64,000 bases of DNA, taken from the IMG/VR virus record IMGVR_UViG_3300045988_123629. One strand, given 5' to 3'. Below are positions 1,222 through 40,231 of the stretch, in pieces. Position 1 is the stretch's first letter, and the number at the start of each line of letters is the position of its first letter. The DNA comes from a virus. The notes under the pieces were generated by a model. The model searched no databases, was not told the origin of the DNA, and was given only the letters and a program-made list of their open reading frames with translations. Made by a program: the position numbers and the translations under genes.

Positions 1222-1230
1222 AATATGATC

Positions 1231-5670: not shown

Positions 5671-5843
5671 AAATGATTTCCTCCTAATAGGTTTTTTAAG
5701 TCTATTAGTCGTAGTGTCAATTATTAAAAATAATAAGCAGCCCTATCTACAATTTCGTAATCTTCTATAATAATCTAAGGACTAATGTTATTATTCCATA
5801 TATTTCGTTCGCATTTACCAACGATATTAATTGTCACATAACC

Positions 5844-7472
5844 CTATTCAGAATACAATTTCTCGTATTCCTCCTCGGACGACTTAAACTTGATTAAACT
5901 GATGCCATCTGGCATAGTTATCTTCAAGGTAGGATTTTTATCTTTTGACATTAAAGTTAAGTTATTTGATGCAACTTTTATTCCTTCAACGGCAATAGAT
6001 GCTTCTTCTACCCCTTGGCCCCAAAGTGATTTAAGTTGAGCGATATCAATAATATCTTTTCCAACTAAATCATTAGTGTGATAAATAAAATCAACACTAT
6101 AAATTGGGGTGAAATCAAAATCTTGTAAAGCAGAATTCGCATATTCAATAAATTTATCAAAATTATCATCAATAATACCAAATCCAAAAGCATTAGGATG
6201 TCCTTCCGCATACATAATTAGATTTGATTTTTGACAAAATTCTCTAAAGTCTTTAAGCGCGGATTTGTCGTATCCTCTGCCGGAGCCTTCCCAACAAATT
6301 TGTTGAGTTTCTTCATCTATTGTTTTATTAAGAATTAAAACAGGACGTTGATATTTGCTCATTAATTGATTGGCCATTAATCCAGTCAAATTTTTGTCAG
6401 CAGCAAATCCATCTAACTTAATTCCTAAGATTTTATTACTTAAAAGATTTTGATTTGCGATTATCTATTCAATTTTTTCCAAGCTAGTGTCTCTGATTTT
6501 AGTTTGCCTATTCTTGATATTAGTACAATTACGACAAGCTTGTTCTACTCTTGTCTCTGCTTGACCTTTACATCCACGTTTTGTTGAAGGGACAAGTTCG
6601 TATCCCTTAAAATCAAGCATTGACTCGAATAGCATGAGCTTTTCTTCTTGCGTCCCAACACGAGTAGTTGCATTAACTAAAGGAGCAATATAGAAAGCTA
6701 CTCCAATAGGCGTAATCTCATTATTAAAATGAAACTAATCTCTATTGATTATGCCTCTGAAGCAAGGATTGGTGATTTGTTGTAAGCCTTTATTAATTAA
6801 ATGTTTTGTTTCAAAATCACGCATATCCATCATGTCGGCCACCATTCCAAGAGCAACTAAATCCAATATATGATCCGCGTATTGAACGTTCATAAGTTCA
6901 TCAATATAACAACAAAACTTATAAACCATTCCTACGCCAGATAAAGATTTTGTCGGATAATCACATAATTGATTGTTAATAATACAAGCATACTATGATA
7001 TTTTATCAGCTTCATGGTGGTCTATTACCAACACGTCAATACCATTTTTATATAAATATTCGTGTTCTAAATAATCATTTGATGAAGAATCTGGAGCAAT
7101 TACTAATTTAATATCTTTATCAATACTATCTGGTATAATTCCGTGTTGTTTTCCTGCATGGACACGATAAAAAATATTGTTTTGCACAAACGCAGGAAAA
7201 AGACAGTATAAGTAATTCATGAGTGCGGCCGCCGAAGTATAGCCATCACAATCACTATCTACCTATATAAGAACTTTGTCATTTTGTGCAATATGTTTGA
7301 CGAGCATTTTTGCACCATTTTCTATTCTATCAATAGTTGCTGGTTCTATAATGTCATCATCAGTGGTATTAAGATAATGAGGAATATCTTGTAATTTAAT
7401 TCCTCTATTGGTTAGCACCTGTTCGACCGCTGAATACTGCGGGATGCGAGGGGCTTTTAGTTGATAGTCCAT
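5844..7472 (-). CDS. recJ: RecJ-like DHH/DHHA1 single-strand exonuclease (about 542 aa) with four in-frame TAGs
   Basis: Four track ORFs (7263..7472, 6993..7220, 6735..6929, 5844..6389) share one frame. The joining segments read DSDCDGYTSAAAL (DHH motif I), VIDHHE and SGVGMVY..LGMVADMMDM. A DHHA1-like stretch (AEGHPNAFGFG) follows. An AAGGAGG RBS precedes ATG 7472. TAGs are at 7263, 6993, 6735 and 6465. Confidence 0.75.
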
Positions 7473-7541
7473 AGGCTATTCAACCTCCTTTCATAATACC
7501 ACCACTATTATTTAAGAATTTCTATAATTTACTTATTCATA

Positions 7542-9432: not shown

Positions 9433-10965
9433 TTAAAAAGCTGACTCTTCTTCAAGAGTAATTTTTATATCATCAATAGGAACAAGTTCATAAGCGTATG
9501 TAGTACAAAACATAGGAATAATTCTACAAGTTCCTAAATCTGCTTTACACCATAAAATAACTCCTTTATACCTACCACGTCTATTTTTATAAACAGACAT
9601 TTTAATAGTTGGAGTATCAAATAATTTTGTGTTTAGTATTTTTTCCAATGAAATTAAATCATCATCTTGGACATTTAAAAGAATTGATCCATAATCTACT
9701 TTATCTGCGATAGATTTTGCTCCACGCAAAAGATTCTGGTCAGGAGTTTTAGAATCAACATAATCACCATTTAACTGTGTTGCTGACATAATAAAAACAC
9801 CGTATTGATTACAAATATCTTTTAATTTGTTAGATAACATAAAAAGTATATTATCTTCACGAAGTTTTACTCCACCACTACGACGAGTAATTTCTTCAAG
9901 AATTTTCATACTTGTATGAATATAGTCATGAAATATATATTTTACATCGTGATCTCTGATGCCTTTTTTGATTTCATTTTCGACATCCTGTAATGAAAAA
10001 TCAGGTAATTCACGAATATACAATGGACTATCTTTAAGAATTTTCGCGGCTTCTATTACTCGTTCTTTTTCATTTCCTTGATATTCATTATAAATAATAT
10101 GTTCTTCATTCACATTAGAAAGAAAAGCAAGCATCATTGTTTGAATTTCATTTTTATCTTGCTCTGTAGTTATATATAATACTGGTTCTTGAATTCCGTT
10201 TTTAATCCAACTTCCAAAAGTATCATCATATATTTTATTACAAGCAATATAGCACGAATCCGCAATCATAGAACGAGTTTTACCTACACCGGTGGCTGCG
10301 GAGCGCAAGTAAAACTTTTTAAGTCTCGCTCCACGAGTAACTGTATTAATTAATGGCCCATATAGAGGACTTCCTGCTATTGGATGTTGCTCTAAATCAT
10401 CAAGCAATTCAAAAATTCCATCACCTGCTTGAACTGCAACTCCTTCAACATCATTTACATATTCATATTTAATTTGTTCTATGCGGTCATCAATTAATTG
10501 TGCGATATGCTCTAATGAAGAATTATCAAGATTATCTTCTTGTAATTGTTTTTTTTCAGTATCTAAAATATTATCAGGGTCATAAATAAAAGAAACATCA
10601 ATGCCATATCTATCATAGGCGCGAAGTAGAGACATTTTTTTTAAACGACCATAATAATAATCAAATGATAAAGGTTTCGCATTTTCAGAAACTTTTAATA
10701 ACCATTCTTCGCCTTTATTAACTTTAAATGTAGCTTCATATTTAGGGCGAGAAGAAAGAAAATCACTAATATTTTCTAAAGTAATTTTCTAAGCTCCTAA
10801 TTCATGAATTTTATATATTGCTCCAAAAACAATTCTATGAAATTCATCAGCAAAGTCTTCATCAGTTATTGTATATCTATCAGTAAAATCCAAAAGCTAA
10901 GGAGTATTATATACGCACCCTATAACTTGTGTAATCGCTGTTGGGTCTACATATTTACTCGGCAT
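9433..10965 (-). CDS. dnaB: replicative DNA helicase (DnaB/T4 gp41-like, about 510 aa) with two in-frame TAGs
   Basis: Track ORF 9433..10635 has the Walker A motif SAATGVGKT. It extends upstream in frame through TAGs at 10789 and 10897 to ATG 10965..10963 with an AGGAGG RBS. The added N-terminal 110 aa align with the DnaB N-terminal domain (AITQVIGCV..FHRIVFGAIYKIHELG). Confidence 0.75.
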
Positions 10966-10975
10966 TTAAGTCCTC

Positions 10976-11536
10976 CTATTCATCTAAAAATGTAAAAACT
11001 GATCTTTTTCGAGGTTCTTTTTTAGGAATAGGAATTTTTATTTCCTTTAATTTAGGAACGTAATCAATAACATTTTTATCTTTATTGGATTGTTGAATCA
11101 TCCAAAGATTATAATAATAATTGTAAGCGTCTTTATAAATAAAAGGTATAATACCAATTCCACCATTAGCTTTATTTTTATTATTTCCTTTAACTTCATA
11201 AAAATAAACTAAGGCTTTTAACATTCCAGAATATGTATATTGGTATTCTCTGATATAATCATTCATTTGCTTGCGGACGCGAGCATTAATATATGATTCT
11301 CCCAATAAGTTTTTTACATATTCTTCAAATTTTTCTTTATCTAAATCTTCTTTTGTTTTTACTTTTTCGGGCGGATTATGAACTTGTAAAGGAGTGTCTT
11401 CATTTTCAGCCTATTTAGCACATTCAGGGTGCGCGTATCTTCGAGATTTTATTTGAACATAAGGAAACTTATCTCTATCAAAAGTTTGCTGACAATAAAT
11501 ACATTTAACTTTATGTATATAAATTACTCCTTTCCA
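10976..11536 (-). CDS. hypothetical protein with N-terminal C2HC-type zinc finger; no canonical start codon
   Basis: Track ORF 10976..11305 extends upstream through a TAG into a zinc-finger-like segment (KVKCIYCQQTF..RRYAHPEC), up to an in-frame TAA at 11537-11539. No ATG, GTG or TTG lies in frame. ATA or ATT codons sit 2-8 nt after an AAGGAG. Promoter P1 is immediately upstream. Confidence 0.3.
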
Positions 11537-24896: not shown

Positions 24897-24917
24897 ATTT
24901 CTTTATTTTATAAATAT

Positions 24918-24946
24918 ATTATAACAAAAATATTTTGGAAAGTCAA
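24918..24946 (-). promoter_or_regulatory. promoter P6 (TTGACT-17-TATAAT)
   Basis: Upstream of 24186..24896 and the gyrB-like gene. Confidence 0.5.
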
Positions 24947-25085
24947 AAAATCGTGGCTTAAAATGCCGATTTAAATAAAACTTGACAGAGATAAAAAATT
25001 TTTTGTATAATATATTTAAGAGAAGCGCCCAGAGGTATAAATAAAAAAATTGGATAGTATATAAAATATACTATCCAATTTTATA

Positions 25086-26847: not shown

Positions 26848-28110
26848 TTACATATGTTCAGCTAATGCCGCAATTTTAGAACGATGAATTTGTTTTAATT
26901 CAATTTCACCATATACATCTGATCCTCTAAATACTTTAGAAGCACGACGCATACCATTATTGGCTCCAGCAAAAGCAATATCATCAACTTGGGTTTTATC
27001 ATCGCCATCAATGATACAAATACCATCTTCACCAATACGCTGCAAGGTCAATTTCATAAGCGAAATATCCATATTTTGTGCTTCAGAAATATAAATACCT
27101 GCTTTCATTCCAGTAGTATCATAACCACGGATATCGCTTAATGGTAAAAGAACTAATTGTTCATTTTCAATCATGCGTTCAACAGCTAAGCGACCACCAA
27201 ATTTACTAATTAAAAGATTGCCAATTTGGCTATCAAGTAATTTTTCATCTCGAGTGCCAGGATAAAAACCTAATTTTGCAGAATTTTTAGTGGCAATCGT
27301 ATTACAAAATACAATGATTTTATCAATACGTCCACGTTCAAATTGATTCATTAAGAAGGCTAAACTTAAATAAGTTTTACCTGAACCCGCAGGACCACGA
27401 ACCATAGTAATAGTATTATTAATAAGACTATCTGCGAATAAAGCTTGATAAGGGTCATCTTTCATAGGTTTTACTTTTCCAAATTGAGTAGAATCAAAAT
27501 TACCAAATGAAATAGGACGATAACCATCACCAGTATAACATACTTTATCAACGATATTATTATCTTTATCTTTTATAATTAAATATTCATTAATATGTAA
27601 ATTATAAACATTTTCGTATTGGTTAGAATAGAAATCAGCCATTTCCGCGTTTGACATTGTAATTTCTACATATCCCTTATACTCATCAATTAATTCTTCA
27701 TCTATGCTTTGAATATGATCTTTGTCAAAGAAAAGATTTGCCATTGCTTTTAATGATAAATCATTAGTGATAAATATAGTATTTGGATGGGCTAATTTAA
27801 ATTCAATTGCGGTAGATAAAATTTTACTATCATCAGTAATTGGAAGGTTAGAATCTTCAATTATTTTTAATCCATCTAATTTAAATAGTTGGATAATATA
27901 ATTATCAGGGTTTTCATTCAATTTATGTAATACTTTACGAGCTGAATATTTAACATCAGCATCTTTATTTGATGATGTTTTTATATTTTCTAATTCTTTT
28001 AAGGTAATAGAAGATATAATAGGTGTATATTCTTCCTCTTGGAGAAATGTATCAACCGCCATCAGCAAACTACAAGTATCATAAAATTTATACATCTTCG
28101 TACTCATCAT
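26848..28110 (-). CDS. phoH: PhoH-like ATPase with N-terminal PIN-like domain
   Basis: Track ORF of 420 aa containing MVRGPAGSGKTYLSLA (Walker A) and a PhoH core. No TAG. Confidence 0.7.
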   Translation of the reverse strand: MMSTKMYKFYDTCSLLMAVDTFLQEEEYTPIISSITLKELENIKTSSNKDADVKYSARKVLHKLNENPDNYIIQLFKLDGLKIIEDSNLPITDDSKILSTAIEFKLAHPNTIFITNDLSLKAMANLFFDKDHIQSIDEELIDEYKGYVEITMSNAEMADFYSNQYENVYNLHINEYLIIKDKDNNIVDKVCYTGDGYRPISFGNFDSTQFGKVKPMKDDPYQALFADSLINNTITMVRGPAGSGKTYLSLAFLMNQFERGRIDKIIVFCNTIATKNSAKLGFYPGTRDEKLLDSQIGNLLISKFGGRLAVERMIENEQLVLLPLSDIRGYDTTGMKAGIYISEAQNMDISLMKLTLQRIGEDGICIIDGDDKTQVDDIAFAGANNGMRRASKVFRGSDVYGEIELKQIHRSKIAALAEHM

Positions 28111-28333
28111 CTTCTTCCTCTTCTATGTTTGGTATAGCAAATCCGACTGTATGAACTGAAGTTTTTGTATCGGTTGCTAATTTTTCGATTTGGGAATTAT
28201 ACTCTGCTATTTTTAGAGTTAATTTTCCCTTTACCAATTCGAGAAAAGTTGTCAATAAACTAACTAAACTATCTCCTATTGGGTATAAAAATGCGATAAA
28301 TATTATTCCGAATATAAATGTTAAAATAAATAT
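28088..28333 (-). CDS. small membrane protein (81 aa) with no canonical start codon
   Basis: The frame is open from the TGA at 28336-28334 to a TAA at 28090-28088. The hydrophobic N-terminus reads IFILTFIFGIIFIAFLYPIG. Just upstream, in frame, is ATG-AAA-GGG-TGA. Confidence 0.3.
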   Translation of the reverse strand: MFILTFIFGIIFIAFLYPIGDSLVSLLTTFLELVKGKLTLKIAEYNSQIEKLATDTKTSVHTVGFAIPNIEEEEDDEYEDV

Positions 28334-28401
28334 TCACCCTTTCATTAGGGATTTGAAGATTTTACCTCTTAACATTTATAAAAATTTATATATTTTTATT
28401 T

Positions 28402-28839
28402 TTAATTCTTGGCCTCATTACGATGTTTACGAATACTTTGGTAAAATTTATCTTTTTCTTTTATGATATAATTTAATTCTTCTTTAGCATTTTTAATAGA
28501 GTCATTTACATATTCAATGTCTTCTTGTTTTTGGCGGATTTGTCGTTGAAGCATTTTATTTTCATAAGATCTAGGATTAAAATATTTGCTTCTATTCATT
28601 GAATAATATAATTGATTTAAAGCTCCAAGTTGAATTTTTAATTCTTTTTTGTATGCTTGTAAAACTTTGATATAAGCTCTTCTATAAGCAAAATTACATC
28701 CAGTTTTCTCATTTGCCATATCCATATCATCAGGATGACATTTAGCGATACCATAAATAATATTACCATCTTTGTCTTCAATTAAACAAGAAGCTTCGCC
28801 TGATTCAGGATTATAACTAAATAAAGGTTCTTTTTTCAA
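28402..28839 (-). CDS. hypothetical protein (145 aa)
   Basis: Track ORF with a hairpin terminator downstream. Confidence 0.35.
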   Translation of the reverse strand: MKKEPLFSYNPESGEASCLIEDKDGNIIYGIAKCHPDDMDMANEKTGCNFAYRRAYIKVLQAYKKELKIQLGALNQLYYSMNRSKYFNPRSYENKMLQRQIRQKQEDIEYVNDSIKNAKEELNYIIKEKDKFYQSIRKHRNEAKN

Positions 28840-28918
28840 AGTAGTAGAACTCCTTTCTATCTATTTCTATAAATATATTAACATAAAAATTATTAAAAAG
28901 CAAAAAAATAAAGGCGAA

Positions 28919-28947
28919 AGTGTAATACTTTCGCCTTTATTTTAATT
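28919..28947 (-). terminator. terminator hairpin at the end of the rSAM/Cys-rich operon
   Basis: Reads aaaggcgaaagt-gtaat-actttcgccttt, flanked by A/T runs on both sides (bidirectional). Confidence 0.5.
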
Positions 28948-30234
28948 CAATAATTCATCTATCCACTCTTGTTTCATATTATTCGGAAATTCTTCGTCTA
29001 TATTATGTTTTTTATAATATTTATTCCAAAATTCAATGTTGGCAAGAGCGCGAGCTTTATGCATAGGACAAATATAAGTAACTCTTTTATTAAGAATTCC
29101 AGTATCTTGATAATTATATGCTTGACACCAAGCGCAACCAGTAGCGATAGGACATTCACGACATTCATCAGAAGATTGAGTATAAGAATTAATTGCTTTT
29201 AATTCTTTTGTTAATTGTTTTTGTTTTTCTGTTGTTGCTATTTCATTTTTATTTACATTTCCTATAATAAGAGGTGGGACGGAATCGCCCAGAGCATCTT
29301 CCATATATCGTAAGCAGGGGTATAAATTACCAGTATAATTCATAGCAATCATACTTCCATTTCCGCCGCACCAATTCTATAGATCATCTTTATTAGTCCA
29401 ATCTTTTGGTCTAAATAATTTCAAATCTGGATATTCAAAAAATGAAATATATACATCTTCTTCTAAATTATTATCAAGGAGATATTGTCCTAATTCTTGT
29501 AATTGTTTATAGTAAATTTTGGCGTGTTCTAAAGTCCAACCTTTTTCAAAAATTACATTCCCTAATATAGAAGTAAATCCTATATCTAAAAGAGCTTTTA
29601 CGGCATCATTTAAATACATAACATTATCAGGAGATAAAGTAATTTTTGAGCAGGGATATTCTCCAGTTTTTTCTCGCCAGTCTTTTATCGCTTTTACTAC
29701 AATATCATAACTACCAGAGCCATCAGGAAATTTTCTACAAGCATCATGCAATTCTTTATTACCATCAATACTAATAGAAACAGATAGCCATTGCTTATAT
29801 TTATCTAAAAATTTTTGTACTTTTGGATCAAAATATAATGTTCCATTAGTACAAATTAAAAATCTTGTAAAATAAATTAATGGACTGTTCATTTCAATTA
29901 ATTTAGAAATTGTATAATCCATTACTTTATCTATTAAATCTAAATTTAAAAAAGGTTCTCCACCAATAAAATCAAAGACTAAACCTATAATATTATCTGG
30001 GTCAAAGTAATCATTTTTCTAAGGATTTACTATTAACATATCAATATATTTTTTAGCTGTTTCAAAATCCATTAAATGATTTTTTTTACAAGTTTGATAA
30101 CAATAACTACATCTTAAATTACAAGCGTCAGTGACCTGTAAAGTTATATCAAAAACTTTATCGCTTTCATTTTTCCATAGTTCTGGATATAATCTTTGAA
30201 TTGTATCACTATACTATTCGAATTTACGTCTCAT
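28942..30234 (-). CDS. radical SAM enzyme with C-terminal SPASM domain (430 aa) with three in-frame TAGs
   Basis: ATG at 30234 overlaps the upstream stop (ATGA). The N-terminus holds the CxxxCxxC motif (TDACNLRCSYCY). The C-terminus has a Cys-rich SPASM-like region (NWCGGNG...CRECPIATGCAWCQ...YICPMH). Track ORFs 29377..29922 and 28942..29352 are in frame and joined through TAGs. Confidence 0.7.
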
Positions 30235-30539
30235 TCAGCATTATCATTAATTGTTATTGTAATAATTTTTGCTTGGAAGTCAATACTCCAATAGGCATTA
30301 TTACCATATTTTTCTAAATCATAATATTTTCCAACTTTATTTCTAATTTTATCATATTCAATAAATTTTTCAACGTATTCTTGATGATATCTTTTATAAT
30401 TATCAGTATCCATATTATTAAATGAAGTGCTATTCATCATATAAGTAATAATACTTTGACGAGCAAGAAGATCTTGATAAGCTCGTTCTAATTTATCATT
30501 TAATTCTACATTATTAGCATTTACTGTAATTGTTTTCAT
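30231..30539 (-). CDS. hypothetical protein (102 aa) between the Cys-rich protein and the rSAM enzyme
   Basis: Track ORF. A possible accessory or recognition protein. Confidence 0.4.
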   Translation of the reverse strand: MKTITVNANNVELNDKLERAYQDLLARQSIITYMMNSTSFNNMDTDNYKRYHQEYVEKFIEYDKIRNKVGKYYDLEKYGNNAYWSIDFQAKIITITINDNAE

Positions 30540-30565
30540 TATTTTTCTCCTTTTTATCTTATAAA

Positions 30566-31270
30566 TTAACTTTTTAAAATTTTAGAATATAAAGACTTTA
30601 AAGCAGTAATTGCTTTCTGCATTTCAGATTTAGTACAGACATTTCCATTATAAGAAGTGTTCTACATTTTAGAAATATTTGTGAATATTTCATTTTTTAA
30701 GTTTGTATTAACTTTACTGTTAGAAGAAACTTTTGTAGGTAAAGTACTATATCCACGTCTAGATAATTCTTTATTTAACATAGTATAAATATTTGCAATA
30801 TCAGCAGCATATAAAACGATTCTTAAATTAATAGAATTATAAAGATTTACATTAGCTGAAGTGGTACATCCATTATCGCAGCCTCCCGTACAATTGCCAG
30901 TACAAGCAGAACAGTCATGCCTACAACTAGCACTGCATCCAACACATCCGCCAGAACAGCTTCCACTACAATCGGTGCGACAACTAGCACTGCATCCAAC
31001 ACATCCGCCAGAACAGCTTCCACTACAATCGGTACTGCAAGAACTGCCACATCCAGAGCAACCTCCATCACATCCGCCTGAACAACTATTACTACAAACT
31101 CCTCCGCATCCGGAGCAACTTCCATCACAGTCTCCTCTACAACTTCCTTGGCATTGGCTAGTGCCGCAAGTTTCACACATAGAACAATTACCGCCACAAC
31201 CATGGTCACATCCATTACTACAGCTTACAAAGCAAGTTCCGACACAACCCTATGTAGTACAATTAGCCAT
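30566..31270 (-). CDS. Cys-rich tandem-repeat protein (234 aa) with two in-frame TAGs
   Basis: ATG at 31270 with an AAGGAGG RBS. The N-terminal 150 aa are dominated by C-x2-3-C spacing, including two near-identical 19-aa repeats (DCSGSCSGGCVGCSASCR[T/H]). The C-terminal roughly 85 aa contain no Cys. Track ORF 30662..31180 is the core and ends at a TAG. Confidence 0.6.
30924..31037 (-). repeat. tandem direct repeat, 57 nt x 2, inside the Cys-rich gene
   Basis: The 57-nt unit caactagcactgcatccaacacatccgccagaacagcttccactacaatcggt(gcga) appears twice in tandem. Confidence 0.6.
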
Positions 31271-31284
31271 ATGTTATGTCCTCC

Positions 31285-31737
31285 TTACATTAAATTTTTT
31301 ACAATATTTTCTAATTCATCTAATTTGTTAAATAATTGATATTTAATAAATATGCTACTTAATAAAGAATAATATCTTAAAGAATTATTTTCTTTTATTT
31401 TATAATTCTTAAAGAATTCTATATTATTTTCTTTTGTGTCTGAATCTAACTTTACTTCTAAAAATAGATAATCAATAGCAGTTAAAACTTGAGTATTATT
31501 TTTTAGATAACTAATTTTATTAATGAAATCTTGTAATTTGTCAATCTATTCTAAATTTCTAAGATTTTCAAAATTTTGAATATTATAAAAAATTATTGCA
31601 ATAGTTTCTTGATATTCGATATCAGAAATTTCATTTAACTATAAAATCAATTCATTGTCATCAAATAAAATACCATTTTCTAACTCTTTAGAAACTTTAA
31701 TTTTTAAAAGTAAAACATCTTTTTCGGATAGAGACAT
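31285..31737 (-). CDS. hypothetical protein (150 aa) with two in-frame TAGs; first gene of the operon
   Basis: ATG at 31737 with an AAGGA RBS. Promoter P7 is upstream. Its TAA stop overlaps the RBS of the Cys-rich gene. Confidence 0.45.
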
Positions 31738-31762
31738 TTTATTCATCCTTTCTTTAATATAA

Positions 31763-31790
31763 ATTATAGCAAAATTTTTTTGATTTTGCA
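31763..31790 (-). promoter_or_regulatory. promoter P7 (TTGCAA-16-TATAAT) for the rSAM/Cys-rich operon
   Basis: Sits immediately upstream of 31737 and downstream of the flotillin terminator. Confidence 0.45.
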
Positions 31791-31931
31791 AATTTTTTAT
31801 TTACCTAATTTATTTATAAATATTGGGTTTATTTTTAATGAGAAATGGCCTTTTAGGTTTTTGCTAAAAAAATTTCTATGGGTGTGAACAATTGGAATTA
31901 CGGCCGATCGCGTTGATCAGGGATAAAAAAA

Positions 31932-31960
31932 ATAGACACTATGAAATAATCATAGTGTCT
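31932..31960 (-). terminator. terminator hairpin downstream of the flotillin gene
   Basis: Reads tagacactatg-aaataat-catagtgtcta. Confidence 0.5.
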
Positions 31961-31967
31961 ACTTAAA

Positions 31968-33353
31968 TTACTTATTCAATGCCTTTGTAAGCATCTCTTT
32001 GATGTCGATGCCATTTTCAGACATTGCTTCAATGACCTGGTTTGCGGAACCCATAACATCCTTTACAAGACGAGCAGAGTTTCCATCGCCATACTGGACG
32101 ATCTTATCCACATTGGTAAGAGGGGCTGCCGCATTTGCCACGATTTGAGGCATTGCATTGAAATACATTTCAATGATAGAAGCTTCACCCATCTTCTTTT
32201 GTGCTTCTGCTTTCTTGTCGATTGCTGTAGCTTCGGCTTCACCAACAGCCGCAATACCAGCAGCTTTCTGTTCGGCTGCGAACTTTTCTGCTTCAGCGCG
32301 AGCACGCATAGCTTTTGCTTCCTGCTCGATCTCATAAGCCTTAGCTTCAGCATCCTTCTGACGACGAATCAGGTCTGCTTCAGCCGCCTTTTCCGCAGCA
32401 TACTTATCAGCATCAGCCTGCTTACGAACCAATGCAGTCAGTTCGTATTCCTTAAGCTCGATTTCTTTCTGCTTCAGTTCAGCTTCACGCTCAGCCTTTG
32501 CGATATTCGCGTTAGTTGCCGCAACATCCTTGAGCTTACGCTGATTTTCAGACTCAATGCCAGCAGCCGCTTCTGCCTGAGCTTTCTTGGTATCAGCTTC
32601 CTGCTTCAACTGAGCCTGCTTAATAGCAAGATCGTTATTGCGGATTGCGATTTCCTCAGCGGCCTTAACCTTAGCGTCATTAGACTGCTTAGCATTTTCC
32701 GCACGAGCGACCTCAATCTCACGTTCCGCATTGGACTTAGCAATTGCCGCGTTCTTGCTAATCTGAGCGACATTATCAATACCGAGGTTAGTGATAACAT
32801 CATTATCATCAGAGAAGTTCTGAACGTTAAAGGTAATCAGCTCAAGACCATAACGTGCCAGATCAGGAACTGCATTCTCCTGGACTTTCTCACTAAACAA
32901 CTTACGATCGCTAACCATATCAGTCAACTTCATCTGACCGACGATCTCACGAATATTACCTTCAAGAAGGTCGTTAATCTTACGAGAAATTTCATCACGG
33001 CCTACGTTAAGGAAGTTCTGAGCGGCGAGCGCAATCATTTCAGGATCTCTACCCACACGAACAGAAACCGTAGAATCAACACGAACGTTAATGTATTCGG
33101 CAGTAGGGACCGCAGATCCAGTCTTTACATCAATTTGAATAGCTCCGAGAGCAAGCTTATCCAAACGTTCGAAGAAAGGAATCTTCAAGCCAGCTTTACC
33201 AACAAGAATTCGAGGTTTCTTATGGACACCACTAATGATATAAGCCATATCAGGCGGAGCCTTTACATAACCATTGAGAAAAATGAAAATTACCAGTAGC
33301 GCAATAAGAACTACAGGAATTGCCGGAAGGATAAATGAAATAATAGCGGGCAT
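31968..33353 (-). CDS. SPFH/band-7 flotillin-like protein (YqiK/FloT family)
   Basis: Track ORF of 461 aa. It has an N-terminal TM helix and an SPFH core, followed by a long Ala/Glu/Lys-rich coiled coil of the flotillin type. Confidence 0.7.
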   Translation of the reverse strand: MPAIISFILPAIPVVLIALLVIFIFLNGYVKAPPDMAYIISGVHKKPRILVGKAGLKIPFFERLDKLALGAIQIDVKTGSAVPTAEYINVRVDSTVSVRVGRDPEMIALAAQNFLNVGRDEISRKINDLLEGNIREIVGQMKLTDMVSDRKLFSEKVQENAVPDLARYGLELITFNVQNFSDDNDVITNLGIDNVAQISKNAAIAKSNAEREIEVARAENAKQSNDAKVKAAEEIAIRNNDLAIKQAQLKQEADTKKAQAEAAAGIESENQRKLKDVAATNANIAKAEREAELKQKEIELKEYELTALVRKQADADKYAAEKAAEADLIRRQKDAEAKAYEIEQEAKAMRARAEAEKFAAEQKAAGIAAVGEAEATAIDKKAEAQKKMGEASIIEMYFNAMPQIVANAAAPLTNVDKIVQYGDGNSARLVKDVMGSANQVIEAMSENGIDIKEMLTKALNK

Positions 33354-33379
33354 AAATAATTCTCCTTATTTATTTAATT

Positions 33380-33643
33380 TTAAATTTTATACTTATATTT
33401 GAATAATGCTTCAATAGCATCATCAATCGAATTATAATATCCATTATGTTCAAATTCTCCATCTTCATCCCATAAGAAAGAGATTTCTACACCTAATGGA
33501 CCTTGTTCCAATTTTTCTTTTACTTCTTTGTAAATTGCTTCTTCCATTTGTCTTGTTATTAATTTTTCCCAATCTTCATAGGACATTTTTCCAGTAATGA
33601 GTTTTTTTGTTAAATCATTACCTTTATAATCATAAAGTGCCAT
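33380..33643 (-). CDS. hypothetical protein (87 aa)
   Basis: Track ORF. Confidence 0.3.
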   Translation of the reverse strand: MALYDYKGNDLTKKLITGKMSYEDWEKLITRQMEEAIYKEVKEKLEQGPLGVEISFLWDEDGEFEHNGYYNSIDDAIEALFKYKYKI

Positions 33644-33653
33644 TTAGTTTTCC

Positions 33654-34214
33654 TCATTCATCAAGAAATGATTTACATTCCTCAACTTTGGCTTTCATAG
33701 CATCAATGATTATATCAAGATTAATTGGATAGCCATGATGAGAGTCAACACCTACATGATACATATAAGGTCGATCTTCAAAGAAGTTAGTGGTTTGATG
33801 AGTATGACCGTAAAGATTCAAAGTCATTTGATGAAGATTTTCTCTTTCAAGATTACCAGTCATACAAGGAAAATGGGTCATAAAGAAATGGTATTTACGA
33901 TAATTTAGCATAATCGCCCAATCCATTTCAACAACATTAGGCAAATCAGCATAAAGTTTCTGTCGAGTTGCCGTATCATGGTTGCCAAATACAATATGGA
34001 ATTTACCCTTGAGACGTTTAATATATTCAATATTAGAAGGGTCTCCAAGCATTAAATCACCAAGAATATAAACATCATCTTCATCAGAAACGATGCTATT
34101 CCATTTCTCAACATAATCTTCATTCATTCCTTCAATTGAAGAATAACCACGAGCTTTCCAAATAAATTCTCGATCATGTCCAAAGTGCATATCACTGGTT
34201 AAAAAGATTGCCAT
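33654..34214 (-). CDS. calcineurin-like metallophosphoesterase
   Basis: Contains DMHFGHD..GDL..GNHD..H. Confidence 0.6.
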   Translation of the reverse strand: MAIFLTSDMHFGHDREFIWKARGYSSIEGMNEDYVEKWNSIVSDEDDVYILGDLMLGDPSNIEYIKRLKGKFHIVFGNHDTATRQKLYADLPNVVEMDWAIMLNYRKYHFFMTHFPCMTGNLERENLHQMTLNLYGHTHQTTNFFEDRPYMYHVGVDSHHGYPINLDIIIDAMKAKVEECKSFLDE

Positions 34215-34714
34215 GTATGAATCACTTCTCCTTTTTCGTTAACCTCTTGGATAAGGTTATATTTAACATATTCTTTAAAAGTGGGAGGAGTAAAAGAATT
34301 TGCCATACTCCGAATCACTTCTTCTGGAACCTGCGCTCGACCATCACGCTGTTTATTGCGCTCAACACAAACTTCAACAGGAACATTAAAATAAATAACA
34401 TTCACATTAAGATTTGCATATCCTTTTGCGTTAATTGCTTTAAGAAGCTTCTTGCGAGAGCCGGGTCCAAGATGCGTGGCATCCACATATACATTATCAT
34501 AATCTCTTAAAGAAAGAGTAATTGCTTCAACAAAAGCATGCCATACACTTTCCTCTTTGGCAAAATAGCTTTCATCATCATTTAACATTTGAAAACGGAG
34601 AGCATCACGAGAAACAACACAACCGCATTGAGGCCAACGATTTTTAAGCCAAGTGGATTTACCCGAGCCGAGACTAAGGAATACCAGACATAATCCAAAG
34701 ATTCTTTCTAGTAT
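34199..34714 (-). CDS. polynucleotide kinase-like P-loop kinase (T4 Pnk kinase-domain-like); no canonical start codon
   Basis: Track ORF 34199..34588 lacks a P-loop. The same frame upstream encodes LSLGSGKSTW (Pnk Walker A) up to an in-frame TGA at 34717-34715, which is preceded by ATG-ATT-AAA. The C-terminus (NKQRDGRAQVPEEVIRSM) is Pnk-like. Confidence 0.5.
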   Translation of the reverse strand: MLERIFGLCLVFLSLGSGKSTWLKNRWPQCGCVVSRDALRFQMLNDDESYFAKEESVWHAFVEAITLSLRDYDNVYVDATHLGPGSRKKLLKAINAKGYANLNVNVIYFNVPVEVCVERNKQRDGRAQVPEEVIRSMANSFTPPTFKEYVKYNLIQEVNEKGEVIHTWQSF

Positions 34715-34718
34715 TCAT

Positions 34719-35105
34719 TTAATCATCCCCTTTCTTTTCTTTGCTATGAATTTCTCTATGACAATTAGCACATACTAATTGACATTTATCTAATTCTTTT
34801 TTAATAACTTGCCAATCTAAAATTAAATTTCTATCACTTAAATTAAAATCTTTTTCTTGAGGATCTAAGTGATGAAAATCAAGTGCTTCAGAACATTTAT
34901 TATATCCGCAAATCTCACATTTATTTCCTTTATATTCTAAGGCCCATTTTTTTATTAATGCTCTTTGTCCTGCTCCAGATTTCGGCACTAATGGAACACA
35001 TTCATAACAATATCTTCTATTATAAGCATTTTCTTTTACTATAAATTTTTTTCCACATTTAGCACAAATTTTTTCAGAAATATTTATGCCTTGACTTCGA
35101 CGCAA
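34719..35105 (-). CDS. HNH endonuclease (128 aa)
   Basis: Contains CxxC pairs and an HNH core (ALDFHHLDP...CANCHREIH). Confidence 0.6.
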   Translation of the reverse strand: MRRSQGINISEKICAKCGKKFIVKENAYNRRYCYECVPLVPKSGAGQRALIKKWALEYKGNKCEICGYNKCSEALDFHHLDPQEKDFNLSDRNLILDWQVIKKELDKCQLVCANCHREIHSKEKKGDD

Positions 35106-35257
35106 TCTTGAAGCTTTCGCCTAACAAGATTGAGAACAATATTTAGTGTCTCTACGGGATCCCTCAAATTCTTTACCACAATGCTAACAAACTAATTTCA
35201 TATAATAATCTCCTTTATATTGAATTATTATATTTAAAATTTATTTAATAATGATTG

Positions 35258-35533
35258 TTAGGTTTTGCCAAAAGAGGTATTCCGGACATAATCCAAAGAT
35301 TCTTTTGCTTCATCTTTATACACCCCATTCTCAAAATTTTCTTTAAACTCTTCTACTTCTTCTGGAGTTCTACATTCGATATGATTTACTTCTTCTTTGC
35401 AATAAATACAATACAGCTTTTTACGATGAAATTTACCATGTTGAAGACTTACTCGACGAGACAAAGGGATTCCTTTTCGTCCACAATTCATACAGTAAAA
35501 ATCATGATTTTCATAAGATGCCATTTGTATCAC
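35258..35533 (-). CDS. zinc-ribbon protein (91 aa)
   Basis: Contains CMNCG...CIYCK. Confidence 0.35.
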   Translation of the reverse strand: MIQMASYENHDFYCMNCGRKGIPLSRRVSLQHGKFHRKKLYCIYCKEEVNHIECRTPEEVEEFKENFENGVYKDEAKESLDYVRNTSFGKT

Positions 35534-40043: not shown

Positions 40044-40231
40044 AGATAATCCTCCAAGACATATCCAATTTGGTCTAATGTTCCGATTCTTTTAAGAATT
40101 GCTATAACTCTTAAAATAGTAAGAGCATCAAGAATATCGTCATAAAGGCAGATAGGGGCTTCCCACTCATTAGCGGAAGCCCACTCTGCATCTAACGATA
40201 AATGTTCCATCAATTCATCAAGTTTCGTCAT
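40040..40231 (-). CDS. hypothetical protein (63 aa)
   Basis: Track ORF. Confidence 0.25.
   Translation of the reverse strand: MTKLDELMEHLSLDAEWASANEWEAPICLYDDILDALTILRVIAILKRIGTLDQIGYVLEDYL

What the first reader, a model, noticed from the sequence alone, without database searches (positions are those of the whole stretch)
28088..34717. Conserved ORFs with no canonical start codon, each sitting in frame directly after a TGA
Three conserved ORFs begin immediately after an in-frame TGA and have no in-frame ATG, GTG or TTG before conserved sequence starts. (a) The small membrane protein at 28088..28333 has ATG-AAA-GGG-TGA-ATA-TTT-ATT.. upstream, all in one frame. (b) The Pnk-like kinase has ATG-ATT-AAA-TGA-ATA-CTA-GAA-AGA-ATC-TTT-GGA upstream, with the Walker A motif LSLGSGKSTW 12 codons after the TGA. 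(c) The DnaE PHP ORF (1..1221) is in frame with the whole upstream HNH ORF, separated only by TGA plus two codons; a TTG 12 nt downstream could serve as its start. Cases (a) and (b) share the pattern ATG, two codons, then TGA-ATA. A fourth gene (10976..11536) also has a conserved zinc-finger N-terminus with only ATT or ATA codons after an AAGGAG. Possible explanations are initiation at AUA or AUU, termination-reinitiation after a 3-codon uORF, or context-dependent TGA read-through.
Basis: seen in the sequence. Interest (0 to 1): 0.55.

Follow-up and report, generated by a model that had tools for sequence, protein, structure and literature searches.

The report
Endonuclease-linked frameshift sites, plus rare start codons
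The "genes without a start codon" are two unrelated things: genes next to selfish endonuclease genes that start at a normal ATG or GTG in another frame and need the ribosome to slip one base forward at a stop codon, and two genes that most likely start at the rare codons ATA and ATT.

Summary
That pattern occurs twice in the window against 2.1 expected by chance.

Kinase (b) and dnaE (c) each have a ribosome-binding site and an ATG in the -1 frame, directly after an HNH endonuclease gene. That short leader encodes the missing conserved N-terminus (MNTRKNLWIMSGIP; MRSYFGIHNHTMYSNLRLL). It ends at a stop codon (CCT-TAG-T; CTT-TGA-C, the prfB heptamer) created by a 7-nt or 1-nt insertion that endonuclease-free relatives lack. 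I found a third case outside the finding's coordinates, a phosphoesterase at 43921..43141 (GGT-TAG-C, 4-nt insertion).

The dnaE site occurs in 19 IMG/VR contigs with at least 11 distinct leaders. It is linked to the HNH family (9 of 19 shifted contigs against 0 of 44 unshifted). The gene body is under strong purifying selection.

The best reading is programmed +1 ribosomal frameshifting within endonuclease cassettes, analogous to T4 mobA/gene 60. This is inferred, not shown experimentally.

Cases (d) and (a) are ordinary rare initiators, ATA and ATT, at correct spacing from a ribosome-binding site. The phage also reads TAG as glutamine.

The parts
1231..1896 (-). HNH-type homing endonuclease gene (HNH_c, 221 aa). 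Its TGA stop (1233..1231) overlaps the dnaE start as ATGA.
   Evidence: ORF. The Pfam HNH match is weak, 18.5 bits, below the cut-off. It is absent from 37 of 46 related dnaE loci. Homologues at 50-100% identity lie directly upstream of the shifted dnaE in 9 of 19 contigs and in 0 of 44 unshifted ones.
1178..1234 (-). dnaE leader ORF: ATG(1234..1232) through CTT(1180..1178), 19 codons, MRSYFGIHNHTMYSNLRLL. It carries the PHP domain's His-x-His motif.
   Evidence: Sequence. It matches the uninterrupted N-terminus of endonuclease-free relatives and of cultured-phage YorL-type polymerases from residue 1-5. Substitutions AAT>AAC and CGC>CGT in L041 and L038 are synonymous in this frame.
1174..1180 (-). 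+1 shift site CTT TGA C in dnaE. One extra T relative to unshifted alleles (CTT/TTA GAY).
   Evidence: The heptamer is the same as in E. coli prfB (my own knowledge; prfB autoregulation is the subject of PMC13245932). Every shifted allele uses CTT as the last leader codon.
1..1176 (-). dnaE (YorL-type DNA polymerase III alpha) body in the +1 frame, starting at GAC(1176..1174). It runs off the window.
   Evidence: Translation. Pfam PHP 92 bits when joined to the leader. dN/dS is 0.05 between shifted alleles.
34719..35201 (-). HNH homing endonuclease gene (HNH_b, 160 aa). Its TAA stop is immediately followed by the kinase ATG.
   Evidence: The Pfam HNH match is weak, 19.9 bits. It is present in the window, L001, L002 and L014 and absent from the 10 other related loci.
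35276..35313 (-). Relic of the ancestral kinase 5' end (ATG AAG CAA ... GGA ATA CC). It is kept upstream of the endonuclease because it doubles as the 3' end of the overlapping zinc-ribbon gene. It marks the upstream edge of the inserted cassette.
   Evidence: comparison of the window with the endonuclease-free locus L003.
34677..34718 (-). Kinase leader ORF: ATG(34718..34716) through CCT(34679..34677), 14 codons, MNTRKNLWIMSGIP. The ribosome-binding site AAAGGGGA lies 7 nt upstream.
   Evidence: TCC GGA ATA CCA has become TCT GGT ATT CCT, which is synonymous in this frame only. The leader folds into a 10-bp hairpin (-19.2 kcal/mol, z -3.3).
34670..34676 (-). 7-nt insertion TAGTCTC. It makes the shift site CCT TAG T and puts GSGKSTW... 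into the +1 frame.
   Evidence: present in all 4 endonuclease-carrying alleles and absent from the 10 endonuclease-free ones. L002 has CTC>CTT, which is synonymous in the +1 frame.
34199..34675 (-). Pnk-like P-loop kinase body in the +1 frame, starting at AGT(34675..34673).
43918..44709 (-). Third endonuclease-like gene (HEG_e, 263 aa; zinc-finger repeats plus a weak DUF2726 nuclease-like C-terminus). Its TGA stop overlaps the next start as GTGA. Outside the finding's coordinates.
   Evidence: A 56%-identical orthologue occupies the same position in L111.
43891..43921 (-). Phosphoesterase leader, GTG(43921..43919) through GGT(43897..43895), MIKHYFITG, plus the 4-nt insertion TAGC (43894..43891). 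Shift site GGT TAG C.
   Evidence: Endonuclease-free relatives read TTG ATT AAA AAG TTC TTT TTG ACT GGC GAT (MIKKFFLTGD). Distant loci L110 and L111 keep CGT GGT TAG C GAT.
43141..43893 (-). Calcineurin-like metallophosphoesterase body in the +1 frame, starting AGC GAT ACT CAT GGA (S-DTHG).
   Evidence: Pfam Metallophos 38.7 bits on the joined protein. The ORF is intact in L110 and L111.
10955..11518 (-). YorH-like zinc-finger protein. Probable ATA start (11518..11516); in-frame TAG (Gln) codons at 11413 and 10978.
   Evidence: The ribosome-binding site GGAAAGGAG (11535..11527) lies 8 nt before the ATA. Homologues have ATG-GCN-CAT or TTG-CAT at the same spacing. A promoter-like TTGACT-N17-TGTATAAT lies upstream.
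28088..28327 (-). Small membrane protein. Probable ATT start (28327..28325).
   Evidence: The ribosome-binding-site-like AAAGGGTGA (28342..28334) lies 6 nt before the ATT (5 nt in relatives). The first 19 codons differ from L076 by 4 synonymous and 0 non-synonymous changes. The TTG at 28255 is ATA in L083.

Best explanation
The finding merges two unrelated phenomena in a TAG=Gln recoded, Shine-Dalgarno-using phage of about 195 kb.

**1. Endonuclease-linked frameshift sites: kinase (b), dnaE (c) and a third gene, the phosphoesterase at 43921..43141.**
Each gene sits directly downstream of a free-standing homing-endonuclease gene. Each begins at a normal start codon (ATG, ATG, GTG) that is adjacent to or overlaps the endonuclease stop (TAA-ATG, ATGA, GTGA). 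A short leader of 9-19 codons encodes the true conserved N-terminus. The leader ends at a 0-frame stop codon, created by an insertion of 3n+1 nucleotides (7, 1 and 4 nt) exactly where the endonuclease-free allele continues in frame. The rest of the protein is in the +1 frame.

The inferred expression mechanism is programmed +1 ribosomal frameshifting at 'shifty stops' of the form NNU-UAG or NNU-UGA (CCU UAG U, CUU UGA C, GGU UAG C). The peptidyl-tRNA re-pairs one base forward while the stop codon in the A site is read slowly. This is how prfB works.

The inferred reason for the insertions, by analogy with T4 mobA and the gene 60 bypass insert, is that they break the endonuclease's target sequence, which the leader-body junction would otherwise regenerate. 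Endonuclease, replacement leader and insertion would then travel together as one mobile cassette.

**2. Rare start codons: (d) and (a).**
These are ordinary genes initiated at rare non-AUG codons, ATA at 11518 and ATT at 28327, each behind a good ribosome-binding site at normal spacing.

**What is shown.** Split N-termini; presence or absence of the insertions tracking the endonucleases; conservation of the sites; purifying selection on the gene bodies.

**What is inferred.** The ribosomal slip itself; its efficiency; the immunity function; the exact junction residues in (b) and the phosphoesterase.
For: **Genome background**
- Genes in the window use AAAGGAGG-type ribosome-binding sites at 6-9 nt spacing.
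- TAG aligns to CAG or CAA in relatives: 17 of the 20 non-TAG correspondences.

**Case (b), kinase**
- Ten endonuclease-free loci read ATG AAG CAA AAG AAT CTT TGG ATT ATG TCC GGA ATA CCA GGC TCG GGT AAA.
- The window, L001, L002 and L014 read ATG ... TCT GGT ATT CCT [TAGTCT(C/T)] GG(C/T) TCG GG(T/C) AAA.

**Case (c), dnaE**
- 37 of 46 loci are uninterrupted. Nine loci and the window carry one extra T, giving CTT T GA(C/T).
- The exact-pattern scan found 19 shifted and 44 unshifted contigs.
- The shifted contigs have at least 11 different leaders. All keep H-x-H-T-x-Y-S-N-(I/L)-R-L-L and CTT.
- The HNH_c family lies directly upstream in 9 of 19 shifted contigs and 0 of 44 unshifted ones.
- The shift is retained in loci where the endonuclease is reduced to a ~20-nt footprint (L038, L039, L041, L056).
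- dN/dS is 0.05 at dS about 0.55-0.58 between shifted alleles.
- The joined N-terminus aligns from residue 1-5 with cultured-phage polymerases and completes the Pfam PHP profile.

**Third case, phosphoesterase**
- Endonuclease-free alleles encode MIKKFFLTGDTHG. Endonuclease-carrying alleles read GTG ATA AAA CAT TAT TTT ATC ACA GGT TAGC GAT.
- L110 and L111 keep GGT TAG C GAT even though the body is 49% and the endonuclease 56% identical to the window's. Their leader keeps the amino-acid sequence IKNWLVRG through synonymous changes such as CGT for AGA.

**Pattern across the three sites**
- All three insertions are 3n+1 nt long and all begin with a 0-frame stop codon.

**Precedent**
- The T4 gene 60 insert protects against cleavage by the nuclease of the 5' homing endonuclease (PMC5009743 section 9). 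[quoted passage not shown]

**Case (d)**
- The ATA lies 8 nt after GGAG in 15 relatives.
- Homologues start MAHKVKC or MHKVKC, with ATG or TTG at the same spacing.

**Case (a)**
- A 1-nt indel in the spacer between the window clade and ~80%-identical relatives leaves only ATA and ATT in a consistent frame.
Against: - There is no experimental evidence of frameshifting.
- No SD-like stimulator lies a few bases 5' of any site, as it does in prfB.
- No conserved RNA structure was found for the dnaE leaders.
- Re-pairing after a +1 slip is only moderate for GGU to GUU.
- A +1 slip would add Ser-Leu inside the kinase P-loop (GIP-SL-GSGKST). Pfam AAA_33 scores 73.2 bits for this product against 82.6 bits for the insert-free sequence. 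This raises the possibility that the kinase is impaired or that a 7-nt hop is used.
- For (b) and the phosphoesterase, homing can move the cassette into intact genes recently, so conservation of the gene bodies does not by itself prove expression.
- In this phage TAG is also a Gln codon. Decoding by a suppressor tRNA would compete with the shift.
- For (a), ATT versus ATA, or reinitiation after the mini-ORF, cannot be separated by sequence alone.
Confidence: 0.7

Rival explanations
1. A common ATG-N6-TGA-ATA cassette drives expression by TGA read-through, by termination-reinitiation after a 3-codon uORF, or by initiation at the ATA that follows the TGA.
For: The literal pattern is present at 28345..28331 and 34726..34712. 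For (a), an ATG...GGG-TGA mini-ORF upstream of the gene is also present in relatives L076 and L083, so reinitiation cannot be fully excluded for that one gene.
Against: - The pattern is at chance frequency: 2 observed against 2.13 expected.
- In (b) the ATG and TGA belong to the endonuclease stop region and the true ATG lies in another frame. Endonuclease-free relatives have no such TGA.
- In relatives of (a) the mini-ORF is in a different frame from the gene, so read-through is impossible there.
- The ATG of (a) lies 20-21 nt from the nearest upstream SD-like motif, and an A-run indel sits between them.
- TGA ends many genes in the window, often in ATGA overlaps.
Confidence: 0.05
2. The insertions are damage caused by endonuclease invasion. 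The kinase, the phosphoesterase and possibly dnaE would then be frameshifted pseudogenes or N-terminally truncated products, tolerated by the phage and carried along by homing.
For: - The kinase and the phosphoesterase are plausibly dispensable.
- L002 and L014 show co-conversion tracts that end at the insertion, so cassettes enter previously intact genes and body conservation could be recent.
- A +1 product of the kinase has an atypical P-loop.
Against: - All three insertions are 3n+1 nt long and start with a stop codon directly after an NNT codon.
- The dnaE site is maintained in at least 11 leader lineages and in genomes that lost the endonuclease. Full-length bodies (about 1300 codons) are intact in loci such as L033, L041 and L067 (in L038 the body is additionally interrupted by a GIY-YIG-containing insert). 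dN/dS is 0.05 at dS about 0.55 between alleles that both carry the shift.
- Leaders stay conserved at the protein level in their own frame.
- The phosphoesterase site and its body persist at about 50% protein divergence.
Confidence: 0.15
3. Short translational bypassing (hopping over 4 or 7 nt, as a miniature of T4 gene 60), rather than a +1 slip, at the kinase and phosphoesterase sites. This would restore exactly the ancestral proteins, ...SGIPGSGKST... and ...ITGDTHG...
For: - A take-off codon followed by UAG (GGU UAG; CCU UAG) resembles gene 60's GGA UAG.
- The hop product of the kinase scores higher against AAA_33: 82.6 against 73.2 bits.
- The endonuclease-carrying leaders fold into hairpins that end at the shift codon. 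mRNA pairing 5' of the ribosome is reported to drive forward bypassing in gene 60 (bioRxiv 10.1101/2024.12.09.627546, title and abstract seen).
Against: - There is no matching landing codon. CUC or CUU would have to serve for tRNA-Pro and AGC for tRNA-Gly.
- CTC>CTT in L002 is synonymous as a Leu codon in the +1 frame.
- The dnaE site needs only a 1-nt shift and is a textbook +1 heptamer.
Confidence: 0.08
4. Assembly or sequencing indel errors, or self-splicing introns that remove the endonuclease cassette at the RNA level.
For: For (b) only, an upstream copy of the kinase 5' end exists (35313..35276). A hypothetical splice from ...ATACC to C/T-GGC would restore the frame.
Against: - The same indels appear in many independent assemblies and samples.
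- None of them lies in a long homopolymer.
- No group I or group II intron model matches anywhere in the window at gathering thresholds.
- dnaE has no upstream exon copy at all, and the phosphoesterase relic lacks 5 codons.
- The boundaries lack the group I U/G signatures.
Confidence: 0.02

Closest known systems
T4 mobA homing endonuclease plus the gene 60 50-nt translational bypass insert (Bonocora et al. 2011 as cited in PMC5009743; Manning & Atkins, bioRxiv 10.1101/2022.08.31.505936)
   Same: - An endonuclease gene lies directly 5' of a recoded essential-type gene.
- A non-triplet insert begins with a 0-frame stop codon right after the last 'normal' codon.
- The insert is present in every endonuclease-carrying genome, absent from endonuclease-free ones, and retained in some genomes that lost the endonuclease.
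- The target is a highly conserved motif-coding sequence.
- Translational recoding restores a single polypeptide.
   Different: - The inserts are 1, 4 and 7 nt rather than 50 nt.
- There are no matched take-off and landing codons and no internal SD in the gap, and no nascent-peptide signal has been identified.
- The likely mechanism is a +1 slip, not a hop.
- The cassette supplies a replacement 5' leader with its own start instead of splitting the gene into two proteins with added tails.
- The endonuclease families and target genes are different (dnaE, a Pnk-like kinase, a metallophosphoesterase).
- Three cassettes occur in one genome.
- Protection from cleavage was not tested here.
prfB (release factor 2) programmed +1 frameshift, CUU UGA C
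   Same: - The dnaE site has the identical heptamer.
- A short ORF1 is followed by a long +1 ORF2 encoding one protein.
- A 0-frame stop codon sits in the A site.
- Expression would be inversely coupled to release-factor activity.
   Different: - There is no AGGGGG-type stimulator 3 nt upstream.
- The genes are unrelated to release factors, so there is no obvious autoregulatory logic.
- Two of the sites use UAG with CCU or GGU as the P-site codon.
- UAG is also a sense codon in this phage.
Non-AUG initiation in bacteria (AUU of infC; ATA, ATT and ATC are listed as rare initiators in NCBI translation table 11). This is my own knowledge.
   Same: (d) and (a) have a strong ribosome-binding site at normal spacing, followed by ATA or ATT and then conserved coding sequence.
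   Different: There is no evidence for IF3-type autoregulation. ATA is among the rarest initiators, and it is fixed in all the related contigs examined.
Free-standing homing endonucleases that split genes (MobE in the Aeh1 nrdA 'genes in pieces', described in bioRxiv 10.1101/2022.08.31.505936 section 12)
   Same: The endonuclease inserts within or at the 5' end of a conserved gene, and function is preserved by an add-on carried with the element.
   Different: Here the N-terminal piece is only 9-19 residues long and overlaps the body ORF out of frame, and the body has no start of its own. Assembly from two separate polypeptides is therefore implausible.

Membership tests
Programmed +1 ribosomal frameshift at a shifty stop (prfB type) | Two overlapping ORFs, the second in the +1 frame, together encode one conserved protein that is uninterrupted in homologues | tested here: met
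   the leader plus the body reproduce the contiguous N-termini of relatives and complete the Pfam profiles.
Programmed +1 ribosomal frameshift at a shifty stop (prfB type) | A P-site codon able to re-pair in +1, immediately followed by a 0-frame stop codon | tested here: met
   CTT TGA C is identical to the prfB heptamer. CCT TAG T and GGT TAG C have the form NNU-UAG and re-pair at 3 (one a G-U wobble) and 2 of 3 positions respectively. All shifted dnaE alleles use CTT, and both phosphoesterase lineages use GGT.
Programmed +1 ribosomal frameshift at a shifty stop (prfB type) | An SD-like stimulator about 3 nt 5' of the slippery codon | tested here: not met
   No GGAGG-like element lies within 15 nt upstream of any of the three sites (sequences).
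Programmed +1 ribosomal frameshift at a shifty stop (prfB type) | Phylogenetic conservation of the shift site while the flanks diverge | tested here: met
   dnaE: 19 contigs with at least 11 distinct leaders. Phosphoesterase: the site is kept at 49% body identity. Kinase: only one lineage, 4 contigs.
Programmed +1 ribosomal frameshift at a shifty stop (prfB type) | A demonstrated trans-frame protein product | not testable with these tools
   Needs reporters, proteomics or ribosome profiling.
Homing-endonuclease plus recoding-insert mobile cassette (T4 mobA/gene 60 type) | The insert is present whenever the endonuclease is present and absent from endonuclease-free alleles | tested here: met
   Kinase: insertion in 4 of 4 endonuclease-carrying and 0 of 10 endonuclease-free alleles. 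Phosphoesterase: 6 of 6 against 0 of 7 close relatives. dnaE: the HNH_c family is upstream in 9 of 19 shifted and 0 of 44 unshifted contigs.
Homing-endonuclease plus recoding-insert mobile cassette (T4 mobA/gene 60 type) | The insert is retained in some genomes that lost the endonuclease | tested here: met
   L038, L039, L041 and L056 keep only the last ~20 nt of the HNH ORF plus the shifted dnaE. L066 and L072 have no endonuclease.
Homing-endonuclease plus recoding-insert mobile cassette (T4 mobA/gene 60 type) | The insert protects the carrier genome from cleavage by its own endonuclease | not testable with these tools
   Inferred from the position of the insertion at the junction and from the T4 precedent only.
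Homing-endonuclease plus recoding-insert mobile cassette (T4 mobA/gene 60 type) | A ~50-nt coding gap with matched take-off and landing codons, decoded by bypassing | tested here: not met
   The inserts are 1, 4 and 7 nt long with no matching landing codon. So this works like the T4 cassette but is not a member of that homologous family.
Non-AUG (AUA/AUU) translation initiation | A ribosome-binding site at functional spacing, with no canonical in-frame start before conserved residues | tested here: met
   (d) GGAAAGGAG, 8 nt, ATA. (a) AAAGGGTGA, 6 nt (5 nt in relatives), ATT.
Non-AUG (AUA/AUU) translation initiation | Homologues start with a canonical codon at the equivalent position | tested here: met
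   (d): ATG GCN CAT AAA in L086, L089 and L090, and TTG CAT AAA in L088, at the same spacing from the ribosome-binding site. (a): inconclusive, because relatives have GTG two codons upstream of the ATT, abutting the ribosome-binding site.
Non-AUG (AUA/AUU) translation initiation | The N-terminal residue is determined experimentally | not testable with these tools
   Needs N-terminal proteomics.
TGA read-through or reassignment (selenocysteine, or code 4/25) | An in-frame TGA is conserved in frame with the ORF in relatives, and TGA is not a general stop | tested here: not met
   The frame relation is broken in relatives of (a). There is no TGA in endonuclease-free alleles of (b) and (c). TGA terminates many ORFs in the window. 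The recoded codon is TAG, read as Gln.
Self-splicing intron carrying a homing endonuclease | An intron RNA fold and two exons that flank the element | tested here: not met
   No intron family matched in the Rfam gathering scan. dnaE has no upstream exon copy.

The most novel reading that the evidence does not exclude
Homing-endonuclease cassettes in these gut phages routinely carry a replacement 5' leader plus a minimal 3n+1 'shifty-stop' insertion. The insertion would make their own insertion site immune to cleavage, and the ribosome would correct it by +1 frameshifting. This would be a compact, recurrent counterpart of the so far unique T4 gene 60 bypass cassette. Because two of the sites use UAG in a phage that switches UAG from stop to Gln, and the third uses UGA, expression of the polymerase, kinase and phosphoesterase would also depend on release-factor and suppressor-tRNA status during infection.
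Probability: 0.4. Interest if true: 0.85.

Novelty: new variant of a known kind. Interest (0 to 1): 0.7.

Why it matters
- **Annotation.** Standard gene callers truncate or mis-start these genes. Database entries for this phage group show 103-109 aa fragments of the YorH-like protein and code-4 'MKGW...' calls for the membrane protein.
- **Biology.** If confirmed, an essential replication gene would depend on a +1 frameshift that arrived with a selfish endonuclease. This would extend the single T4 mobA/gene 60 precedent to a family of much simpler cassettes hitting three different genes in one genome.
- **Testability.** The dnaE site, CUU UGA C without the prfB stimulator, and two UAG sites in a UAG-recoded phage provide natural, short constructs. 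They can be used to ask what a shifty stop minimally needs, and how stop-codon recoding interacts with frameshifting.
- **Start codons.** The ATA start is a clean comparative example of one of the rarest bacterial initiators.

Tried and rejected
- **DNA searches.** A megablast search of 8 kb against cultured phages gave no match. A more sensitive blastn search found only short HNH-like patches. tblastn with HNH_c found no close homologue in cultured phages, so no isolate is available as a model.
- **Literature.** Searches for phage dnaE or homing-endonuclease-linked +1 frameshifts returned nothing specific. Only the T4 gene 60 literature was relevant.
- **RNA structure.** RNAalifold on 12 dnaE leaders gave no consensus structure. 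Single-sequence folds downstream of the three sites are not more stable than shuffles.
- **Introns.** The Rfam scan found no intron.
- **Alternative starts for (a).** A GTG start fits relatives but is out of frame in the window clade. The TTG at 28255 is not conserved (ATA in L083) and would delete the conserved transmembrane helix. ATG plus TGA read-through fails in relatives. These were all rejected.
- **Upstream ATG for (d).** ATG 11537 followed by a +1 shift at ACA-TAA-A was rejected: it has no ribosome-binding site and no re-pairing is possible.
- **Window scan for more +1 candidates.** It gave only the kinase and phosphoesterase sites plus incidental overlaps. dnaE runs off the window, so the scan could not list it.
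- **ORF 25085..24903.** It has no canonical start, but it looks like low-complexity non-coding sequence.
- **Second endonuclease paralogue (42339..41596).** It precedes an RNA-ligase-like gene with an ordinary ATG, so not every endonuclease here carries a shift site.
- **Cluster look-up.** It gave no organism names.

Full report
**Context**

The window is about 30% GC. Almost all genes lie on the minus strand. It has no close DNA relative among cultured phages, but it has many close and distant relatives in IMG/VR, on contigs of about 110-196 kb.

Runs of same-frame ORFs are separated only by TAG. In relatives, the window's in-frame TAGs align to TAG 271 times, CAG 13 times, CAA 4 times and GAA twice. 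TAG is therefore a glutamine codon. TGA and TAA terminate genes, often in ATGA overlaps.

Genes use strong AAAGGAGG-type ribosome-binding sites at 6-9 nt spacing. The replication module is SPbeta-like: YorH- and YorL-type proteins, about 41% identical to polymerases of Bacillus, Enterococcus and Staphylococcus phages. This points to a Gram-positive host.

**Checking the observation**

The four sequence descriptions are correct. The supposed common cassette ATG-N6-TGA-ATA occurs twice in the window, against 2.13 expected by chance.

**Case (b), the kinase**

Ten related loci lack the HNH gene at 35201..34719. They start the kinase ATG AAG CAA AAG AAT CTT TGG ATT ATG TCC GGA ATA CCA GGC TCG GGT AAA, which encodes MKQKNLWIMSGIPGSGKSTW. 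This start overlaps the 3' end of the upstream zinc-ribbon gene.

The window and the three other HNH-carrying loci (L001, L002, L014) read differently. AAAGGGGA is followed after 7 nt by ATG(34718) AAT ACT AGA AAG AAT CTT TGG ATT ATG TCT GGT ATT CCT, then seven extra bases TAGTCT(C/T), then GGC TCG GGT AAA.

- The ATG frame keeps the ancestral peptide. Four consecutive third-position changes are synonymous only in that frame.
- The P-loop and the rest of the protein are in the +1 frame.
- In L002 the changes after the insertion are synonymous in the +1 frame, and the leader-frame stop is lost.
- Joining the leader to the body extends the Pfam AAA_33 match to profile position 1.
- The ancestral kinase 5' end survives upstream of the HNH gene, at 35313..35276. 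So the element was inserted exactly at the CCA|GGC junction and carries its own replacement leader.

**Case (c), dnaE**

An ATG at 1234..1232 overlaps the HNH stop as ATGA. It encodes MRSYFGIHNHTMYSNLRLL, which contains the PHP domain's His-x-His motif, and ends CTT TGA C. The long ORF continues in the +1 frame with GAC TGT ATT..., encoding DCINRPQ.

- 37 of 46 related loci are uninterrupted, reading ...CTA TTA GAT TGT... Nine loci and the window have one extra T.
- The exact-pattern scan found 19 shifted and 44 unshifted IMG/VR contigs.
- The shifted contigs have at least 11 different leaders. All have a ribosome-binding site and a start codon, H-x-H-T-x-Y-S-N-(I/L)-R-L-L, and invariably CTT before the TGA.
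- Homologues of the window's HNH (50-100% identical) lie immediately upstream in 9 of 19 shifted contigs and in none of the 44 unshifted ones.
- In L038, L039, L041 and L056 only the last ~20 nt of the HNH ORF remain, yet the shift is kept.
- The polymerase body is under strong purifying selection between alleles that both carry the shift: dN/dS 0.05 at dS 0.55-0.58.
- The joined N-terminus aligns from residue 1-5 with cultured-phage polymerases.
This is arithmetic: an overlapping stop/start (ATGA or TAATG) is -1, and the shift is +1.

**A third case, outside the finding's coordinates**

The endonuclease-like ORF 44709..43918 is followed, through a GTGA overlap, by GTG ATA AAA CAT TAT TTT ATC ACA GGT TAG C GAT ACT CAT GGA.

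- Endonuclease-free relatives read TTG ATT AAA AAG TTC TTT TTG ACT GGC GAT ACT CAT GGA, encoding MIKKFFLTGDTHG. The extra bases are the 4-nt insertion TAGC.
- Distant phages L110 and L111 keep CGT GGT TAG C GAT behind an orthologous endonuclease. Their phosphoesterase is 49% and their endonuclease 56% identical to the window's.
- Their leader keeps the sequence IKNWLVRG of endonuclease-free cousins through synonymous changes.

**Interpretation of the three sites**

- The insertions are 1, 4 and 7 nt long, all 3n+1.
- Each begins with a 0-frame stop directly after an NNT codon (CTT|TGA, CCT|TAG, GGT|TAG).
- Each lies at the junction between a cassette-borne leader and the resident gene.
- Each leader start is adjacent to or overlaps the endonuclease stop.

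This is the signature of +1 frameshifting at shifty stops. The dnaE heptamer equals that of prfB. The genetic arrangement parallels the T4 mobA/gene 60 cassette. In T4, the insert protects against cleavage by the endonuclease, and it persists in phages that lost the endonuclease (PMC5009743 section 9; bioRxiv 10.1101/2022.08.31.505936 section 12).

The frameshift itself and the immunity role are inferences.

- No prfB-like internal SD is present, and no conserved structure was found for the dnaE leaders.
- The kinase leader in endonuclease-carrying alleles forms a hairpin from the start codon to the shift codon (-19.2 kcal/mol, z -3.3). The two phosphoesterase leaders form weaker ones. Endonuclease-free leaders mostly do not. 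This is suggestive only.
- A +1 slip adds Ser-Leu to the kinase P-loop and Ser before DTHG. A hop of 7 or 4 nt would restore the ancestral sequence but lacks landing codons.

Pseudogenisation, splicing and assembly error were considered. They are unlikely for dnaE and cannot be fully excluded for the kinase (see the rival explanations).

**Case (d)**

All 15 relatives keep GGAAAGGAG, 8 nt, then ATA CAT AAA GTT AAA TGT, behind a promoter-like TTGACT-N17-TGTATAAT.

- More distant homologues begin MAHKVKC or MHKVKC.
- Their DNA has ATG GCN CAT, or TTG CAT, at the same distance from the ribosome-binding site.
- ATA 11518 is therefore the start.

**Case (a)**

The window clade reads AAAGGGTGA-ATATTT-ATT. 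Relatives at about 80% identity read AAAGGGTGA-TATTT-ATT, one A fewer.

- The 1-nt difference puts ATG-AAA-GGG-TGA out of frame with the ORF in the relatives, and the GTG out of frame in the window.
- Only ATA and ATT are in a consistent frame in both. ATT has proper spacing from the ribosome-binding site.
- The first 19 codons differ from L076 by 4 synonymous and 0 non-synonymous changes.
- The TTG at 28255 is not conserved.
- 'ATGAAAGG...' recurs as an extended ribosome-binding site upstream of several genes in this phage group.

**Novelty**

Each ingredient is known: +1 shifty stops, endonuclease plus recoding cassettes, and non-AUG starts. The combination was not found in the searchable literature. 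That combination is minimal 3n+1 inserts, cassette-borne replacement leaders, three target genes in one TAG-recoded genome, and a widespread dnaE site.

I rate it a new variant of a known kind.

Noticed in passing
whole window, e.g. 62323..61019, 60910..59399, 30234..28942, 7490..5724 (minus strand): TAG is a sense codon. Chains of same-frame ORFs are separated only by TAG. The window's in-frame TAGs align to CAG or CAA (Gln) in relatives in 17 of the 20 non-TAG cases. No tRNA with a CUA anticodon was found in this window.
   Followed up: partly
window 55070..55209 (-): A tRNA-like gene with an insertion of about 68-71 nt in the anticodon loop. Rfam found it (59.9 bits) but ARAGORN missed it. 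The anticodon and the nature of the insertion are unresolved. It could be relevant to TAG decoding.
   Followed up: partly
window 56285..56413 (-): A match to the RAGATH-33 RNA family above its gathering score (124.5 bits), near the tRNA cluster.
   Followed up: no
window 42339..41596 (-) and 41594..40218 (-): A fourth endonuclease-like ORF, a paralogue of the one at 44709..43918. It directly precedes an RNA-ligase-like gene that has an ordinary ATG and no shift site. Together with the kinase and two phosphoesterases this looks like an RNA-repair module riddled with endonuclease genes.
   Followed up: partly
L038 and L049, about codon 457 of dnaE (beyond the window's end): In some relatives dnaE is also interrupted inside the ELP|DIDID active-site motif by an insertion that carries a GIY-YIG endonuclease ORF. 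It resembles an intron and is a further mobile element in the same gene.
   Followed up: no
window 34726..34670 (-) and 43925..43891 (-): In endonuclease-carrying alleles the leaders fold into hairpins that pair the start-codon region with the codons just 5' of the shift site. In the kinase, the 7-nt insertion itself pairs with GATTAA upstream of the ATG. The extra N-terminal codons in these leaders supply the 5' arm of the hairpin.
   Followed up: partly
window 31270..30566 (-): A protein made largely of Cys/Gly/Ser repeats (CSGGCDGGCSGCGSSC...), with a mirror ORF on the other strand. Function unknown.
   Followed up: no
window 35313..35258 (-): In endonuclease-free relatives the zinc-ribbon gene and the kinase overlap by about 55 nt in different frames. 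The endonuclease insertion gave the zinc-ribbon protein a new C-terminus (...NTSFGKT instead of ...NTRLG).
   Followed up: partly
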